Positions 16,370-20,245 of a stretch of 64,000 bases of DNA are shown here, piece by piece (within the stretch, counting starts at the first letter, position 1; each line of letters begins with the position of its first letter). The notes under the pieces are model-generated. The model ran no database searches. It saw nothing but the letters and a program-made list of their open reading frames with translations, and was not told where the DNA came from. The stretch lies in assembly GCA_025060295.1 (NCBI GenBank), contig JANXCH010000011.1:6816-70815 (forward strand), written 5' to 3'. The translations under genes were made by a program, and so were the position numbers. Source of the stretch: Dehalococcoidia bacterium (GTDB taxonomy: Bacteria; Chloroflexota; Dehalococcoidia; Lucifugimonadales; HRBIN23).

Positions 16370-17359
16370 GTGGGAACCACTTTCCCTCCCTTCCTTCTGG
16401 TGCACCTGTTGCGCACCATGGTGCGCATCCGCATCTTTGAGGAGCGCACCGCCGACCTGCTCCTCCGGGGGGAGATTCGCTGTCCCACGCACCTGTACAT
16501 CGGCCAGGAGGCCATCGCCACCGGAGTGTGCGCCGCCCTGGACCGCTCGGACTACATCCTGGGCACCCATCGCTCCCACGGCCACTTCCTGGCAAAGGGC
16601 GGCTCCATGCGCGCCCTGATGGCCGAAATGTTCGGCAAGAAAACAGGATGCGCCTACGGACGGGGCGGCTCGATGCACCTTATCGCCCGGGAAGTGGGCT
16701 TTTTAGGGTCAGTGCCCATGGTCGCCGCCACCATCCCTATAGCCGTCGGCTCCGCTTTGGCCTCTACCCTCTTGGAGCAGGGACGGGTGGCGGTCTCCTT
16801 CTTCGGCGACGGCGCCACCGAGGAGGGCGAATTCCACGAATCCCTGAACTTCGCCGCCCTTTGGAAACTCCCCGTGCTGTTCGTCTGCGAGAACAACTTC
16901 TACTCCACCCATATGCCCTTGCACGCCCGCCAGCCTACCCAAGACCTCACCCGCCACGCCCTCGCCCACGCCATCCCTGGCGTCGCCGTGGACGGCAACG
17001 ATGTGGTGGCCGTCTATACTGCCGCCCACGAGGCCGTCCAGCGCGCCCGCGCGGGCCTGGGCCCCACCCTGTTGGTGTGCAACACCTACCGCTGGCGGGG
17101 ACACGTGGGCCCCCACTGGGATTTGGACAAAAACATCCGCCCCCAAAAGGAGGTGGAGGCGTGGATGGCCCGCTGCCCTATCCATCGCCTGGAGACCGCC
17201 CTGCTGCAGCAGGGCCTCCTGACCCCCCAGGAACGGGACACCATCTACGCCCAAGCCGTGCACGAGGTGGAAGACGCCGTGGCCTTCGCACGCCACAGCC
17301 CCTTCCCGGACCCGGTGGAACTGCCCGCCCACCTCTTCACAGACAGGAAAACCCCCTGA
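16370..17359 (+). CDS. Thiamine-diphosphate-dependent 2-oxoacid dehydrogenase E1 component, alpha subunit homologue
   Basis: It carries [22 protein letters not shown] and the TPP-binding motif [36 protein letters not shown]. GTG 16370 lies 3 nt after the upstream stop. Confidence 0.85.
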   Translation: [329 protein letters not shown]

Positions 17360-17360
17360 C

Positions 17361-18347
17361 ATGCGCACCCTCACCTACGCCGAAGCCATTCGCGAAGCCT
17401 TCGCCCAGATGCTGGCCACCAACCCCCGCCTGTTGGTGATCGGGCAGGGGGTAACCAACCCCTGGTATGTGGGCGACAGCATGCGCGACCTGGATAAGCA
17501 GTTCGGCACCCGCCGTATCATCGACCCCCCTGTCTCCGAGCAGGGCACCAACGGTATCGCTATCGGTGCCGCCCTGGCCGGCATGCCCACCATCCTCATT
17601 CACCCCCGCATGGACTTCCTCCTCAAAGGGGTGGAACAGATCATCAACCAGGCCGCCAACTGGTGCTATGTGTTCGGGGGCCAGGCGGGTGTGCCCCTGG
17701 TCATTCGCGCCATCATCAACCGCGGGGGCGAGCAGGGTGCCCAGCATTCCCAAGCCCTGCAGGCCCTCTTCGCCCACATTCCCGGCCTGAAGGTGCTCAT
17801 GCCCGCCACACCCTACGACGCCAAAGGCCTCCTCATGGCTAGCGTGCAGGATGGCAACCCCATCGTCTACATTGACGACCGCTGGCTCTATAAAGAGCGA
17901 GGGCCCGTCCCCGAGGAGCCATATACCGTCCCCATCGGAAAGGGCATTATTCGCCACGAAGGACAGGATGTCACCCTGGTCGCCCTCTCCTATATGGTTG
18001 TGGAGGCGCAAAAGGCCTTGCCCCTCCTGGAACAGCAGGGTATCTCTGTAGAACTCATTGACCTGCGCTCCGTCAAACCCTGGGATAAGGAGTTGGTGCT
18101 CGCCTCCGTGCGCAAGACGGGACGCCTGGTAGTGGCCGACAGCGGGTGGCGCACGGGGGGTGTCTCGGCAGAGATTGTGGCCACAGTGGCCGAGGAGGCC
18201 TGGGCTGTCCTGAAAGCGCCGCCCCTGCGCCTGGCCCTCCCTGACCTCCCCGCCCCCACCTCCCGGACCTTGGAGGAGGCCTACTACCCCCGCGCAGCCC
18301 ACATCGTAGACACCGTAACCCGCGCCTGCGGGAACGCACACCGCTAA
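17361..18347 (+). CDS. 2-oxoacid dehydrogenase E1 component, beta subunit homologue (transketolase-like)
   Basis: It carries IDPPVSEQGTNGIAIGAALAGMPTI and a C-terminal transketolase-C-like region, VELIDLRSVKPWDKELV. It starts 1 nt after the alpha-subunit stop. Confidence 0.85.
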   Translation: MRTLTYAEAIREAFAQMLATNPRLLVIGQGVTNPWYVGDSMRDLDKQFGTRRIIDPPVSEQGTNGIAIGAALAGMPTILIHPRMDFLLKGVEQIINQAANWCYVFGGQAGVPLVIRAIINRGGEQGAQHSQALQALFAHIPGLKVLMPATPYDAKGLLMASVQDGNPIVYIDDRWLYKERGPVPEEPYTVPIGKGIIRHEGQDVTLVALSYMVVEAQKALPLLEQQGISVELIDLRSVKPWDKELVLASVRKTGRLVVADSGWRTGGVSAEIVATVAEEAWAVLKAPPLRLALPDLPAPTSRTLEEAYYPRAAHIVDTVTRACGNAHR

Positions 18348-18357
18348 GGAGGCTGGC

Positions 18358-19476
18358 ATGCCCACGCCCTGGAAAGTGCCCTACATTGACTACCCCACCG
18401 CCTTCCGCAAGATGGAGGGCGAGATTATGGAGACCATCCGTCAGGTGCTGGCGGGGGGCGACCTTATCCTCCGCAAGCACGTGGAGGCTTTTGAGGCGCA
18501 CCTGGCTCAGTTCGTGGGCACCCGCTACGCCATTGGCGTCAACAGCGGCACCGATGCCCTTCATCTCTCCCTACGGGCTGCGGGCATCGGTCCAGGCGAC
18601 GAGGTTATCACCGTCTCCCACACCTTTGTGGCCACGGCCGCTGCCATCCACCACGCCGGCGCTACCCCCGTCCTGGTGGACATCGGCGACGACCACAACA
18701 TGGATGTGGGCAAGGTGGAGCGGGCTATTACCCCCCGCACTAAGGCCATTATCCCCGTCCACCTCAACGGGCGCCTGTGTGCGATGGACGCCCTGATGGC
18801 CATCGCCCAGCGCCACAATCTACTGGTCATTGAAGACGCCGCCCAAGCTTTGGGAGCATCCTATAAGGGACGCAAGGCCGGCTCCTTTGGCATCGCCGGA
18901 TGCTTCAGTTTCTACCCCGCAAAAATCCTGGGGGCCTTTGGCGACGCCGGCGCCGTCGTAACCAACGACCCCCAGATCGCCCAGAAGGTGCGCTGGCTCC
19001 GCAACCACGGGCGCACCGAGGATGGGGATGTGGCCCTCTTCTCCTTCAATAGCCGACTGGACAACCTCCACGCCGCCATCCTAGACCTCAAGTTGAAGTG
19101 GGTTCCCGAGTGGATTCGCCGCCGGCGGGAACTGGCCCGCCTGTATCACCAGCGTTTGGCTGATCTCCCCCAGGTGCACCTGCCCCCGCCCCCTGTGGAG
19201 GAGGGACCCTTCTTTGATGTATTCCAGAACTACGAGATAGAGGCTGAGCGGCGCGATGCCCTGGTGGAGCACCTCAAGGCCCAGGGGATAGAGGTGATGC
19301 TCCCCTGGGGAGGGAAAGCGGTGCACCACTTCAAGGCCTTGGGCCTTTCCCACTACGCCCTCCCCAAGACCGACGCCGTGTTCCGGCGCGTGCTGATGCT
19401 CCCCATGCACCCCGAACTGACCGACCAACAGGTGGAGTATGTCGCCCAAAGCATCCGCGCCTTCTACGGGCGCTAA
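18358..19476 (+). CDS. DegT/DnrJ/EryC1/StrS-family PLP-dependent sugar aminotransferase
   Basis: It carries FEAHLAQFVGTRYAIGVNSGTDALHLSLRA and the Schiff-base lysine context CFSFYPAKILGAFGDAGAVVTND. Confidence 0.9.
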   Translation: MPTPWKVPYIDYPTAFRKMEGEIMETIRQVLAGGDLILRKHVEAFEAHLAQFVGTRYAIGVNSGTDALHLSLRAAGIGPGDEVITVSHTFVATAAAIHHAGATPVLVDIGDDHNMDVGKVERAITPRTKAIIPVHLNGRLCAMDALMAIAQRHNLLVIEDAAQALGASYKGRKAGSFGIAGCFSFYPAKILGAFGDAGAVVTNDPQIAQKVRWLRNHGRTEDGDVALFSFNSRLDNLHAAILDLKLKWVPEWIRRRRELARLYHQRLADLPQVHLPPPPVEEGPFFDVFQNYEIEAERRDALVEHLKAQGIEVMLPWGGKAVHHFKALGLSHYALPKTDAVFRRVLMLPMHPELTDQQVEYVAQSIRAFYGR

Positions 19477-20245
19477 GCCCGCCGACTACACCCCCGTTAC
19501 CGAGCGCCCCGGCCTTAGGAGCACGCCGGAGGCCCTTTCCATGCTCGTAACCCGCTACGCCGTGGCGGCGCGCCACGCCCAGGGCAAAGAGGTATTGGAG
19601 GTGGCCTGCGGGGCGGGGATGGGGCTGGGATGGCTGGGCAAGGTAGCCAAGCGCCTGGTGGGGGGCGACTTCACTCGCCCCCTCCTCCGACAGGCTCAGG
19701 CCTATTACAAAGGCCGTGTGCCCCTGGTGCAATTGGACGCCCACGCCCTCCCCTTTCGCGACGCCAGTTTTGACCTGGTCATCCTCTACGAAGCCATCTA
19801 CTACCTGGCGCGCCCCGACGCCTTCCTCAAAGAGACGCGACGTGTCCTGCGCCCTGGAGGTATGCTTCTAGTGTGCTCCGCCAATCGGGAGCGCCCCGGC
19901 TTCGTCCCCAGTCCCTTGAGCGTCCGCTACTATTCGGCACGTGAACTGGTTGACCTCCTGCAGGCACACGGCTTTGCCGTCCAGGTGTTCGGAGCTTTTC
20001 CCGCCGCTGAAGGGAAACGGGAAGGCCTTATCAACCTGGCCCGCAAAGCGGCCTCCACCGTCAACCTCATCCCTGGCTCCCTGAAGGCGCGGGAGATCCT
20101 CAAACGCATCGTTTATGGCAAGTTGGTGCCCTTCCCCAACGAGGTCTCGGACAAAGATGCCCCTGTAGCCGACCTGGTCCCCCTTGCGCCTGTGGGGCCC
20201 ACTCCGCACTACAAGGTGCTTTACGCCCTCGCGCGTTTATCGTAA
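19439..20245 (+). CDS. Class I SAM-dependent methyltransferase
   Basis: It has the motif VLEVACGAGMGLGWL and a post-I acidic residue. The start is uncertain; ATG 19439 overlaps DegT by 38 nt and ATG 19541 is an alternative. Confidence 0.7.
   Translation: MSPKASAPSTGAKPADYTPVTERPGLRSTPEALSMLVTRYAVAARHAQGKEVLEVACGAGMGLGWLGKVAKRLVGGDFTRPLLRQAQAYYKGRVPLVQLDAHALPFRDASFDLVILYEAIYYLARPDAFLKETRRVLRPGGMLLVCSANRERPGFVPSPLSVRYYSARELVDLLQAHGFAVQVFGAFPAAEGKREGLINLARKAASTVNLIPGSLKAREILKRIVYGKLVPFPNEVSDKDAPVADLVPLAPVGPTPHYKVLYALARLS

What the first reader, a model, noticed from the sequence alone, without database searches (positions are those of the whole stretch)
16370..20245. Stand-alone TPP-dependent E1 alpha/beta pair wired into the sugar pathway: predicted C-branched or otherwise novel amino-deoxy sugar
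Seen:
- Genes 16370-17359 and 17361-18347 encode clear E1 alpha and E1 beta homologues. Alpha carries the TPP motif [31 protein letters not shown]. Beta is transketolase-like.
- They are separated by 1 nt.
- They begin 3 nt after the initiating phosphoglycosyl transferase. They are followed after 10 nt by a DegT-type sugar aminotransferase and then an overlapping SAM methyltransferase.
- A CapD/PglF-type 4,6-dehydratase lies 1.1 kb further on.
- No lipoyl-E2 or E3 gene occurs anywhere in the 64 kb.

Established:
- E1 components normally hand the acyl group to a lipoyl-E2.
- E2-less E1 alpha/beta homologues occur in deoxysugar pathways of antibiotics. AviB1/AviB2 act in avilamycin eurekanate formation and AlmDI/AlmDII in aldgarose formation.
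- In those pathways they are implicated in transferring a pyruvate-derived two-carbon unit onto a keto-sugar nucleotide.

Inference: the dehydratase supplies a 4-keto-6-deoxy-hexose nucleotide here. The E1 pair then adds a hydroxyethyl or acetyl branch, and amination and methylation follow. A C2-branched amino sugar in a cell-surface polysaccharide would be very unusual. This is my top candidate for undescribed chemistry in the window.
Basis: partly seen in the sequence, partly recalled or inferred. Interest (0 to 1): 0.7.

Follow-up and report, generated by a model that had tools for sequence, protein, structure and literature searches.

The report
E2-less E1 pair in polysaccharide locus
A thiamine-dependent E1 alpha/beta enzyme pair with no partner E2/E3 sits inside a cell-surface polysaccharide operon of a hot-spring bacterium, belongs to a distinct clade found in the same sugar cassette in many phyla, and most likely attaches a pyruvate-derived two-carbon branch to a keto-sugar that is then aminated, a sugar type not yet reported from any polysaccharide.

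Summary
The genes, spacings and TPP motif are as described, and no E2 or E3 gene occurs in the 64 kb.

The pair is not a stray housekeeping enzyme. Its alpha and beta subunits form one clade, recovered in 100/100 bootstraps. I found 34 loci of this clade, from more than ten phyla. Among them:
- a small phosphoglycosyl transferase lies nearby in 28;
- a DegT aminotransferase in 27;
- a PglF-type UDP-GlcNAc 4,6-dehydratase in 16;
- a methyltransferase in 15;
- a lipoyl-E2 in none.

More distant homologues frequently have E2 next door.

In three loci, and in the published Crocosphaera watsonii WH0003 EPS region, an aldo-keto reductase replaces DegT. The enzyme that reduces the 4-C-acetyl branch of paulomycose (Pau7) is an aldo-keto reductase. 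The acetyl branch of kibdelomycin's amycolose is transaminated.

The best reading is therefore: PglF makes UDP-4-keto-6-deoxy-HexNAc, the E1 pair adds an acetyl branch from pyruvate, DegT converts the branch ketone to a 1-aminoethyl group, the methyltransferase decorates it, and the transferase loads the sugar onto the lipid carrier.

This is inference from context and precedent; no chemistry was tested. I rate it a new variant of a known kind.

The parts
15753..16367 (+). Small monotopic phosphoglycosyl transferase (PglC-size, 204 aa from the internal ATG). Presumed to load the finished sugar-1-phosphate onto undecaprenyl phosphate.
   Evidence: Pfam Bac_transf 8.3e-64. Nearest solved structures are the WbaP catalytic domain and PglC. 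A homologue lies within 7 kb of the E1 pair in 28/34 clade loci.
16370..17359 (+). E1 alpha homologue, the TPP-diphosphate/Mg-binding subunit (329 aa, GTG start).
   Evidence: Pfam E1_dh 6.9e-74. NCBIfam PDH_E1_alph_y scores 333 bits, below its 394 cut-off. The GDG...NN motif is present. The His of YRWRGHVGP aligns with the His of HGHS in human E1 alpha. Clade-specific residues S69, P116, T121 and H181 (converted to gene numbering).
17361..18347 (+). [quoted passage not shown]
   Evidence: Pfam Transket_pyr plus Transketolase_C. NCBIfam PRK09212 scores 287 bits, below its 321 cut-off. E60 and H129 align with E59 and H128 of the G. stearothermophilus enzyme. Twenty clade-specific substitutions include Q29, P34-W35-Y36, H81-P82-R83, N120-R121, E124-Q125 and D172-D173-W175.
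18358..19476 (+). DegT-family PLP aminotransferase. Proposed to transaminate the branch (acetyl) carbonyl.
   Evidence: Pfam DegT 5.7e-112. The Lys of the FSFYPAK motif is present. Nearest solved structures are 7b0d (310 bits), DesV (285), QdtB and WbpE; PglE scores only 114 bits. A homologue lies next to the E1 pair in 27/34 loci and is never present together with the AKR.
19439..20245 (+). Class I SAM-dependent methyltransferase; target atom unknown.
   Evidence: Pfam Methyltransf_11 1.9e-21. No close solved relative. A homologue is present in 15/34 loci, often directly after DegT.
20260..21354 (+). GT2 glycosyltransferase with a C-terminal hydrophobic region.
   Evidence: Pfam Glycos_transf_2 1.6e-30. 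Homologues lie just upstream of, or fused to, the PGT in several related loci.
21351..22805 (+). PglF/CapD-type UDP-GlcNAc 4,6-dehydratase, short form without membrane N-terminus. Supplies the 4-keto-6-deoxy-HexNAc nucleotide.
   Evidence: Pfam CoA_binding_3 plus Polysacc_synt_2 6e-112. Nearest solved structure is C. jejuni PglF/WlaL 5bju at 274 bits. A homologue is present within 7 kb in 16/34 loci.
22898..24517 (+). Wzz-type chain-length regulator fused to a BY-kinase ATPase with a Tyr-rich tail.
   Evidence: Pfam Wzz plus CbiA/AAA_31/ParA. The same gene follows the cassette in L001 and L002.
693..15760 (+). Upstream remainder of the Wzx/Wzy-type polysaccharide locus. It holds GT4-like glycosyltransferases, a UDP-sugar dehydrogenase, two methyltransferases, the Wzx flippase (3924-5570), a PMT_2-like GT-C and a multi-span ORF with no Pfam hit (14411-15760) that is a candidate Wzy polymerase.
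   Evidence: Pfam. All genes are co-directional. GC content is lower than in the rest of the window.
24699..26619 (+). Two NAD-dependent epimerase/dehydratase genes that close the locus.
   Evidence: Pfam Epimerase/GDP_Man_Dehyd.

Best explanation

Proposed pathway; every step is inferred:
1. The PglF-type dehydratase turns UDP-GlcNAc into UDP-2-acetamido-2,6-dideoxy-hexos-4-ulose.
2. The E1 pair decarboxylates pyruvate to hydroxyethylidene-ThDP. It adds this to the C-4 carbonyl, giving a 4-C-acetyl tertiary alcohol.
3. The DegT aminotransferase converts the acetyl carbonyl into a 1-aminoethyl branch. In sister loci an aldo-keto reductase makes a 1-hydroxyethyl branch instead.
4. The methyltransferase methylates the product at an unknown atom.
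5. The small PGT transfers the sugar-1-phosphate to undecaprenyl phosphate as the first residue of a Wzx/Wzy-made repeat unit.

Some of these steps could instead occur on the lipid-linked sugar.

What is shown: gene content, gene order, clade structure, co-occurrence and conserved catalytic residues. What is inferred: every chemical step.
For: - Operon structure, with 1-10 nt gaps or overlaps between genes.
- No E2 or E3 in the window. E2 is found in 0/34 loci of this clade, whereas 17 of about 50 more distant E1 loci have a lipoyl-E2 within 6 kb.
- The clade is a bipartition in 100/100 NJ bootstraps on alpha plus beta.
- Co-occurrence across 34 loci: PGT 28, DegT 27, PglF 16, methyltransferase 15. 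The loci come from Nitrospirota, Acidobacteriota, Actinomycetota, Chloroflexota, CPR groups, Planctomycetota, Bacteroidales and others.
- DegT and AKR are mutually exclusive in the slot next to the E1 pair. One locus has a PGT-AKR fusion. C. watsonii WH0003 has methyltransferase-AKR-E1a-E1b-PGT.
- Pau7, which reduces the 4-C-acetyl branch of paulomycose, is an AKR.
- The kibdelomycin branch ketone is transaminated to the aminoethyl branch of amycolose. KbDH-alpha/beta uses pyruvate plus ketones in vitro.
- Catalytic Glu/His are kept while about 20 beta-subunit positions that are conserved in E2-linked enzymes are replaced. The signature recurs in independent database representatives.
- Both subunits score below the NCBIfam PDH E1 cut-offs.
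- The dehydratase is closest to PglF.
Against: - No enzyme assay and no glycan structure are available.
- I could not obtain AviB1/B2, AlmDI/DII, Pau11/12 or KbDH sequences, so relatedness to the proven branching enzymes is untested.
- DegT's nearest solved relatives are ring C-3 aminotransferases. Nothing shows that it accepts an exocyclic ketone.
- PglF is seen in only 16/34 loci. Some contigs are short, but some loci may use another keto-sugar.
- One clade member (L014) has no sugar genes nearby.
- To my knowledge no polysaccharide with an aminoethyl-branched HexNAc has been reported.
- The signature residues have not been placed on a 3-D model.
Confidence: 0.55

Rival explanations
1. The branch is made as above, but DegT aminates a ring position (C-3, or C-4 of a second intermediate) rather than the branch ketone. 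The product would be a C-acetyl-branched ring-amino sugar.
For: DegT is closest to the ring C-3 aminotransferases DesV, QdtB and WbpE. Some loci carry two DegT genes or an extra class I/II aminotransferase.
Against: After addition at C-4 no ring ketone is left, and the cassette has no 3,4-ketoisomerase or C-3 oxidase. The DegT/AKR alternation is explained most simply by a shared carbonyl substrate. An AKR is the proven branch-ketone reductase in paulomycin.
Confidence: 0.15
2. The E1 pair replaces the missing PglD-type acetyltransferase. DegT makes UDP-4-amino-4,6-dideoxy-HexNAc and the E1 pair delivers a pyruvate-derived acyl group to the amine.
For: The cassette is PglF/PglE/PglC-like but lacks any Hexapep or GNAT acetyltransferase.
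Against: Acyl transfer from hydroxyethyl-ThDP needs an oxidant (lipoyl, flavin), and none is encoded here. No precedent is known to me. The rival does not explain loci where an AKR replaces DegT. A few loci do carry a GNAT alongside the pair.
Confidence: 0.08
3. The pair is a keto-acid decarboxylase that serves the transaminase. It either removes the keto-acid co-product to pull an unfavourable amination, or makes an aldehyde that DegT turns into a small amine substituent, by analogy with phosphonopyruvate decarboxylase plus AEP transaminase.
For: E1 and an aminotransferase are tightly adjacent in 27/34 loci. An additional class I/II aminotransferase lies next to the cassette in eight or nine loci.
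Against: It does not explain the AKR-containing loci that lack any aminotransferase. E1 enzymes release aldehyde poorly (general knowledge). The remodelling of the beta-subunit pocket points to a new, large acceptor substrate.
Confidence: 0.05
4. It is an ordinary acetoin or pyruvate dehydrogenase E1 that works with an E2/E3 encoded elsewhere and is only a passenger in the locus.
For: The fold, the TPP motif and the catalytic Glu/His are canonical. The rest of the genome was not available to me.
Against: The conserved cassette occurs in 34 loci from many phyla with no E2 nearby. The clade is separate from E2-linked pairs. Both subunits score below the equivalog cut-offs. The pair is translationally coupled within a sugar operon.
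Confidence: 0.04

Closest known systems
KbDH-alpha/beta and the branch transamination of amycolose (kibdelomycin/amycolamicin pathway)
   Same: An E2-less E1 alpha/beta pair that uses pyruvate and accepts ketones, including sugar analogues, in vitro. The acetyl branch is then transaminated to a 1-aminoethyl branch. The gene logic E1a-E1b plus aminotransferase is the same.
   Different: Actinomycete antibiotic pathway; the branch is at C-3 of a deoxyhexose, which I presume from general knowledge of such pathways to be dTDP-activated. No PGT is involved and the product is attached to an aglycone, not a polysaccharide. Sequence relatedness was not testable here.
Pau11/Pau12 with Pau7 (paulomycose); AviB1/AviB2 (eurekanate); AlmDI/DII (aldgarose)
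   Same: E1 alpha/beta homologues proposed or shown genetically to install a pyruvate-derived acetyl branch on a 4-keto or 3-keto sugar. In paulomycin an aldo-keto reductase reduces the branch ketone. The AKR variant of the present cassette mirrors this.
   Different: Secondary-metabolite clusters of Streptomyces. The sugars are not HexNAc-derived, and there is no lipid-carrier transferase.
YerE/YerF (yersiniose A) and other YerE-like enzymes in LPS
   Same: ThDP-dependent transfer of activated acetaldehyde from pyruvate to a nucleotide 4-keto-sugar destined for a surface polysaccharide.
   Different: YerE is a single-chain enzyme of the decarboxylase (acetolactate-synthase-like) superfamily and acts on CDP-3,6-dideoxy-4-keto-glucose. 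Here the catalyst is a two-subunit E1. The review places E1-type branchers in secondary metabolites and YerE-type in LPS.
PglF-PglE-PglD-PglC pathway to UDP-diNAcBac
   Same: A PglF-like dehydratase (5bju is the best PDB hit), a DegT-family aminotransferase and a PglC-size PGT in one operon.
   Different: There is no PglD acetyltransferase, and an E1 pair is inserted. The aminotransferase is much closer to DesV/QdtB/WbpE than to PglE.
AcoA/AcoB and PdhA/PdhB, the E1 components of acetoin and pyruvate dehydrogenase complexes
   Same: Fold, TPP motif and catalytic Glu59-beta/His128-beta equivalents. About 40-48% identity to E2-linked pairs.
   Different: No E2/E3 partner in the locus. Separate clade. 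Below the NCBIfam cut-offs. Conserved beta motifs are replaced: GEDV...GG.F by GQGV..PWY.G, GG by NR, EH by DD.
Split-transketolase cassette of Actinoplanes missouriensis wps-2
   Same: A Wzx/Wzy EPS cluster with a SAM methyltransferase, a two-subunit ThDP enzyme, DegT genes and a PGT in one block.
   Different: The ThDP enzyme there is a split transketolase (TK_N plus TK pyr/C), not E1_dh. Its function is likewise unassigned.

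Membership tests
E1 (alpha2beta2) component of lipoyl-dependent 2-oxoacid/acetoin dehydrogenase complexes | Alpha subunit with E1_dh fold and GDG...NN ThDP/Mg motif; beta subunit with Transket_pyr plus Transketolase_C | tested here: met
   Pfam; motif read in the translation.
E1 (alpha2beta2) component of lipoyl-dependent 2-oxoacid/acetoin dehydrogenase complexes | Catalytic residues: beta Glu59 and His128 (G. stearothermophilus numbering, from my memory of the literature) and the alpha His of the YR.xGH loop | tested here: met
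   Alignments to 1w85_B/3duf_B and 1ni4_A: E60, H129 and alpha H245 are conserved.
E1 (alpha2beta2) component of lipoyl-dependent 2-oxoacid/acetoin dehydrogenase complexes | A lipoyl-bearing E2 (and E3) partner encoded with it | tested here: not met
   No E2/E3 in 64 kb. 0/34 clade loci have E2 within 7 kb, against 17 of about 50 outgroup loci within 6 kb. The whole genome could not be examined.
E1 (alpha2beta2) component of lipoyl-dependent 2-oxoacid/acetoin dehydrogenase complexes | Score at or above the curated NCBIfam PDH E1 model cut-offs (equivalog for alpha, subfamily PRK09212 for beta) | tested here: not met
   Alpha 332.9 versus 393.85; beta 287.4 versus 321.
aKADH2-type sugar C-branching E1 pairs (AviB1/B2, AlmDI/DII, Pau11/12, KbDH-alpha/beta) | E1 alpha/beta pair without E2/E3, embedded among nucleotide keto-sugar genes (4,6-dehydratase) | tested here: met
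aKADH2-type sugar C-branching E1 pairs (AviB1/B2, AlmDI/DII, Pau11/12, KbDH-alpha/beta) | A neighbouring enzyme able to tailor the new branch ketone (AKR reductase or aminotransferase) | tested here: met
   DegT in 27/34 loci and AKR in 3/34, mutually exclusive. Precedents. That these enzymes act on the branch ketone is inferred.
aKADH2-type sugar C-branching E1 pairs (AviB1/B2, AlmDI/DII, Pau11/12, KbDH-alpha/beta) | Sequence clustering with the characterised members | not testable with these tools
   No sequence of AviB1/B2, AlmDI/DII, Pau11/12 or KbDH could be retrieved. Krug et al. 2024 is not held.
aKADH2-type sugar C-branching E1 pairs (AviB1/B2, AlmDI/DII, Pau11/12, KbDH-alpha/beta) | Pyruvate-dependent carboligation onto a ketone acceptor in vitro | not testable with these tools
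   Requires an enzyme assay.
PglFEDC-type diNAcBac pathway | PglF-like UDP-GlcNAc 4,6-dehydratase and PglC-size PGT | tested here: met
PglFEDC-type diNAcBac pathway | PglE-like C-4 aminotransferase | tested here: inconclusive
   A DegT-family enzyme is present, but PglE (1o61) scores 114 bits against 285-310 bits for DesV/7b0d.
PglFEDC-type diNAcBac pathway | PglD-like N-acetyltransferase | tested here: not met
   No Hexapep or GNAT domain in any ORF of the locus that was scanned.
YerE-like ThDP branching enzymes of LPS | Single-chain decarboxylase-superfamily architecture (TPP_enzyme N/M/C) | tested here: not met
   The architecture is E1_dh plus Transket_pyr/Transketolase_C on two polypeptides.

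The most novel reading that the evidence does not exclude
A large, phylogenetically widespread class of bacterial surface polysaccharides is initiated by a so far undescribed sugar. This would be a 2-acetamido-2,6-dideoxyhexose carrying a C-4 (1-aminoethyl) branch, or a (1-hydroxyethyl) branch in other loci. It would be made by a dedicated clade of lipoyl-independent E1 alpha/beta carboligases and recognised by its own family of small phosphoglycosyl transferases.
Probability: 0.4. Interest if true: 0.75.

Novelty: new variant of a known kind. Interest (0 to 1): 0.62.

Why it matters
- **A new branched sugar.** If the model is right, branched-chain amino sugars of the amycolose type are not confined to rare actinomycete antibiotics. 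They would be a common building block of cell envelopes in many, mostly uncultured, phyla including CPR bacteria.
- **A PGT substrate.** The model assigns a substrate to an unassigned group of small phosphoglycosyl transferases.
- **Annotation.** It gives an annotation rule for E1 pairs now labelled 'pyruvate dehydrogenase' in genomes: beta-subunit signature plus PGT/DegT or AKR context.
- **Biocatalysis.** It offers thermostable ketone-accepting ThDP carboligases for making tertiary alcohols. The review consulted states that no experimental structure exists for this enzyme class.
- **Testable in culture.** It suggests experiments in culturable carriers: Crocosphaera watsonii WH0003, and Solidesulfovibrio magneticus RS-1 and Azospirillum oryzae for the related heptose-type cassette.

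Tried and rejected
- **Direct phylogeny against AviB1/B2, AlmDI/DII, Pau11/12 and KbDH.** No sequences were obtainable. The key paper (Krug et al., Angew. Chem. 2024) is not held.
- **Streptomyces plasmid hits.** They turned out to be non-sugar or unannotated contexts.
- **Literature search for PDB 7b0d, the best DegT match.** Only irrelevant hits, so its substrate remains unknown to me.
- **The listing of cluster members.** It gave no organism names for close homologues.
- **First neighbourhood clustering.** It lost real genes to long antisense ORFs in high-GC DNA and crashed. I redid it with homology-anchored and GC3-weighted ORF choice.
- **Two literature searches for E1 genes in O-antigen or capsule loci.** They returned noise.
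- **Placing signature residues in 3-D.** Considered and dropped because the structure tool returns no coordinates. Their proximity to the active site therefore rests only on their position next to known motifs.
- **Rejected readings.** A transketolase-like cleavage of the keto-sugar would open the ring that the PGT needs. Housekeeping PDH is treated under the rival explanations.

Full report
**1. Observation**

- The small phosphoglycosyl transferase (PGT) ends at 16367.
- E1 alpha runs 16370-17359 with a GTG start. This matches the 329-aa public gene call P0001.
- E1 beta runs 17361-18347.
- DegT runs 18358-19476 and is preceded by GGAGG.
- A methyltransferase runs 19439-20245, then a GT2 (20260-21354) and a PglF-type dehydratase from 21351.

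Pfam assigns every one of them with E-values between 1e-21 and 1e-112.

I tested the absence of E2 and E3 by tblastn of the whole window. The queries were E2 and E3 proteins taken from related loci; one query of each kind was confirmed by Pfam. There was no hit at E<=1e-3, and there is no second E1 pair.

The surrounding 26 kb is a one-directional Wzx/Wzy-type polysaccharide locus. It holds GT4-like transferases, a UDP-sugar dehydrogenase, the Wzx flippase, a GT-C, a candidate Wzy, a Wzz/BY-kinase and epimerases. The DNA is found in hot-spring metagenome runs.

**2. What the pair is not**

Both subunits fall below the curated NCBIfam cut-offs for pyruvate dehydrogenase E1: 333 versus 394 bits for alpha and 287 versus 321 for beta. 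The nearest solved structures are ordinary PDH and BCKDH E1 enzymes at modest scores. No member of this subgroup has been solved.

**3. Related loci**

E1 alpha has thousands of homologues at about 60% identity. The first three neighbourhoods I opened repeated the window's gene order: PGT-E1a-E1b-DegT-MT-PglF, or PGT-DegT-E1a-E1b.

A scan of one genome per species returned 80 loci, all from metagenome-assembled genomes. tblastn with the window's proteins split them cleanly.
- Where E1 beta is at least 50% identical, a PGT and a DegT lie within a few kb.
- Where it is 34-47% identical, they do not.

After adding further loci, the PGT-linked clade contains 34 loci including the window.

| Neighbour within 7 kb | Loci (of 34) |
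|---|---|
| E1 beta | 33 |
| Small PGT | 28 |
| DegT | 27 |
| PglF | 16 |
| Methyltransferase | 15 |
| Class I/II aminotransferase | 8 |
| Aldo-keto reductase (AKR) | 3 |
| E2 | 0 |

In contrast, 17 of about 50 outgroup loci have a lipoyl-E2 within 6 kb.

On a concatenated alpha plus beta alignment (588 columns, 76 loci) the clade is a bipartition in 100 of 100 neighbour-joining bootstraps. Members come from these groups, among others:
- Nitrospirota
- Acidobacteriota
- Desulfobacterota-like lineages
- Actinomycetota
- Dehalococcoidia
- Armatimonadota
- Omnitrophota
- Planctomycetota
- Bacteroidales
- Gemmatimonadales
- an alphaproteobacterium
- three CPR groups

**4. Sequence signature**

The catalytic glutamate and histidine of the beta subunit are retained. 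These are E60 and H129 here, equal to E59 and H128 of the G. stearothermophilus enzyme. The alpha histidine of the YR.xGH loop is also retained.

Twenty beta positions and six alpha positions are at least 90% fixed in the clade and at most 15% shared with the outgroup. Several replace motifs that are nearly invariant in E2-linked enzymes:
- GEDV...GG.F becomes GQGV..PWY.G.
- GG before HSQ becomes NR.
- EH in the ..LEH..LY motif becomes DD.
- The sequence HPR appears in place of the three residues two positions upstream of the conserved phenylalanine (F86 here).

A subset (H81, R83, R121) is shared by every E2-less pair I examined, including plasmid-borne ones from cultured bacteria, and is absent from E2-linked pairs.

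In an independent search of 1.84 billion representatives, 11 of the best 150 hits carry at least 12 of 15 signature residues. Some of these are alpha-beta fusions. Fifty-five carry the H/R/R triad.

That these residues line the acceptor channel is my inference from their position next to known active-site motifs. It was not verified in 3-D.

**5. The informative variant**

In locus L092 (GCA_000763215.1) the order is MT-PGT-aldo/keto reductase-E1a-E1b-PglF, with no DegT. L021 has the same arrangement, and L030 encodes a PGT-AKR fusion protein.

A published table for Crocosphaera watsonii WH0003 lists a related block. It gives glycosyltransferase, O-methyltransferase, aldo/keto reductase, E1 alpha, E1 beta and sugar transferase in a strain-specific EPS region, annotated simply as pyruvate dehydrogenase.

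DegT and AKR never co-occur in the 34 loci. An enzyme slot filled either by a ketone reductase or by an aminotransferase implies a ketone substrate.

**6. Precedent**

A 2025 review of ketone-accepting ThDP enzymes describes E2-less E1 alpha/beta pairs ('aKADH2') as the enzymes that put a C2 branch on keto-sugars in antibiotic pathways.
- KbDH-alpha/beta of kibdelomycin was shown in vitro to use pyruvate and ketones, including sugar analogues.
- The branch ketone is subsequently reduced, methylated, oxidised or, in kibdelomycin, transaminated.
- The review's figure legend places E1-type branchers in secondary metabolites and YerE-type enzymes in LPS.

Amycolose is indeed an alpha-aminoethyl-branched sugar. 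Pau7, which reduces the 4-C-acetyl branch of paulomycose, is an aldo-keto reductase. AviB1/AviB2 are proposed to install the acetyl branch from pyruvate.

**7. Mechanism proposed**

The window's dehydratase is closest to C. jejuni PglF, so the acceptor is most likely UDP-2-acetamido-2,6-dideoxy-hexos-4-ulose.

The E1 pair would add activated acetaldehyde from pyruvate to C-4. This leaves the acetyl carbonyl as the only ketone. DegT would aminate it, or an AKR would reduce it in other loci. The methyltransferase acts at an unknown atom. The PGT then starts the repeat unit with this sugar.

This reading uses every gene of the cassette and explains three things: the missing PglD-type acetyltransferase, the missing E2, and the DegT/AKR alternation.

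Weak points:
- DegT's best solved relatives are ring C-3 aminotransferases.
- PglF is not seen in all loci.
- I could not compare sequences with the proven branching enzymes.
- No polysaccharide with such a sugar is known to me.

I put 0.55 on the full pathway. I put about 0.7 on the narrower claim that the pair is a lipoyl-independent carboligase acting on a keto-sugar.

**8. Rivals**

- Ring amination after branching: 0.15.
- N-acylation of a 4-amino sugar in place of PglD: 0.08. This is chemically awkward without an oxidant.
- A decarboxylase serving the transaminase: 0.05.
- A passenger housekeeping E1: 0.04.

The remaining probability is for something I have not thought of.

**9. Novelty and value**

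The enzyme kind is known. The clade, its signature, its coupling to a PglC-size PGT and a UDP-HexNAc dehydratase, and its breadth across phyla are not described in anything I could search. The two papers that list such genes do not interpret them.

About 120 gene clusters with such enzymes were reportedly catalogued in a paper I could not read, so partial overlap with prior work is possible.

I classify the finding as a new variant of a known kind, with interest 0.62.

Noticed in passing
L086 (Solidesulfovibrio magneticus RS-1 plasmid pDMC1, record 22.5-35.4 kb); L088 (Azospirillum oryzae plasmid); L025-L027, L038: A second sugar-linked class of E2-less E1 alpha/beta pairs. It is flanked by GT2, radical SAM(-SPASM), NUDIX, an HldE-like kinase/nucleotidyltransferase, a SIS (GmhA-like) gene, SDRs and one or two DegT genes. 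This suggests branching of a nucleotide-heptose. These pairs share the beta H81/R83/R121 triad but not the full signature.
   Followed up: partly
L030:5729-7492: In a Paceibacterota MAG the small PGT and the aldo-keto reductase are fused in one 587-aa ORF (Bac_transf plus Aldo_ket_red). This hints that branch tailoring may occur at the membrane on the lipid-linked sugar.
   Followed up: partly
window 1-16000 versus 16001-64000: GC content steps from 49-60% to 63-68% at about 16 kb, just at the PGT/E1 boundary. The glycosyltransferase/Wzx/Wzy part of the locus looks compositionally foreign, whereas the E1 cassette matches the rest of the window.
   Followed up: no
window 21351-22805: The PglF-like dehydratase is a short form (484 aa; CoA_binding_3 plus catalytic domain, no membrane N-terminus). 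Most related loci encode 617-709 aa proteins. The upstream in-frame extension to 21111 overlaps the GT2 gene and is not hydrophobic.
   Followed up: partly
about eight or nine related loci, among them L012, L015, L016, L024, L031, L063, L071 (the two counting methods, differ slightly in membership): A class I/II (Aminotran_1_2) aminotransferase sits directly beside the E1/DegT genes in these clade loci and in no outgroup locus. In L031 it occurs without DegT. It could supply pyruvate and glutamate, or be an alternative branch aminotransferase.
   Followed up: partly
L087 (Streptomyces griseofuscus pSGRIFU1, record 137.1-139.1 kb): An E2-less E1 alpha/beta pair lies next to a condensation-domain protein, ACP, ketosynthases and SARP/ScbR regulators. 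This is a non-sugar secondary-metabolite use of the same enzyme type.
   Followed up: no
Literature: Actinoplanes missouriensis wps-2 (AMIS_56690-56780): An EPS cluster with the same layout, but with a split transketolase (N and C halves) where the E1 pair would be. It also has two DegT genes, a methyltransferase and a GNAT-PGT fusion.
   Followed up: no
window 22898-24517: The Wzz/BY-kinase fusion ends in an unusually long tyrosine-rich tail (YYGYGYRYGYYYYYHYGYYGYG).
   Followed up: no
window 27792-30843, minus strand: An hrcA-grpE-dnaJ heat-shock operon and three adjacent tRNA genes (30603-30843) mark the end of the polysaccharide locus.
   Followed up: no
P0138, P0143, P0154 (database representatives): Some proteins carrying the clade signature are single-chain alpha-beta fusions of 665-713 aa.
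   Followed up: no
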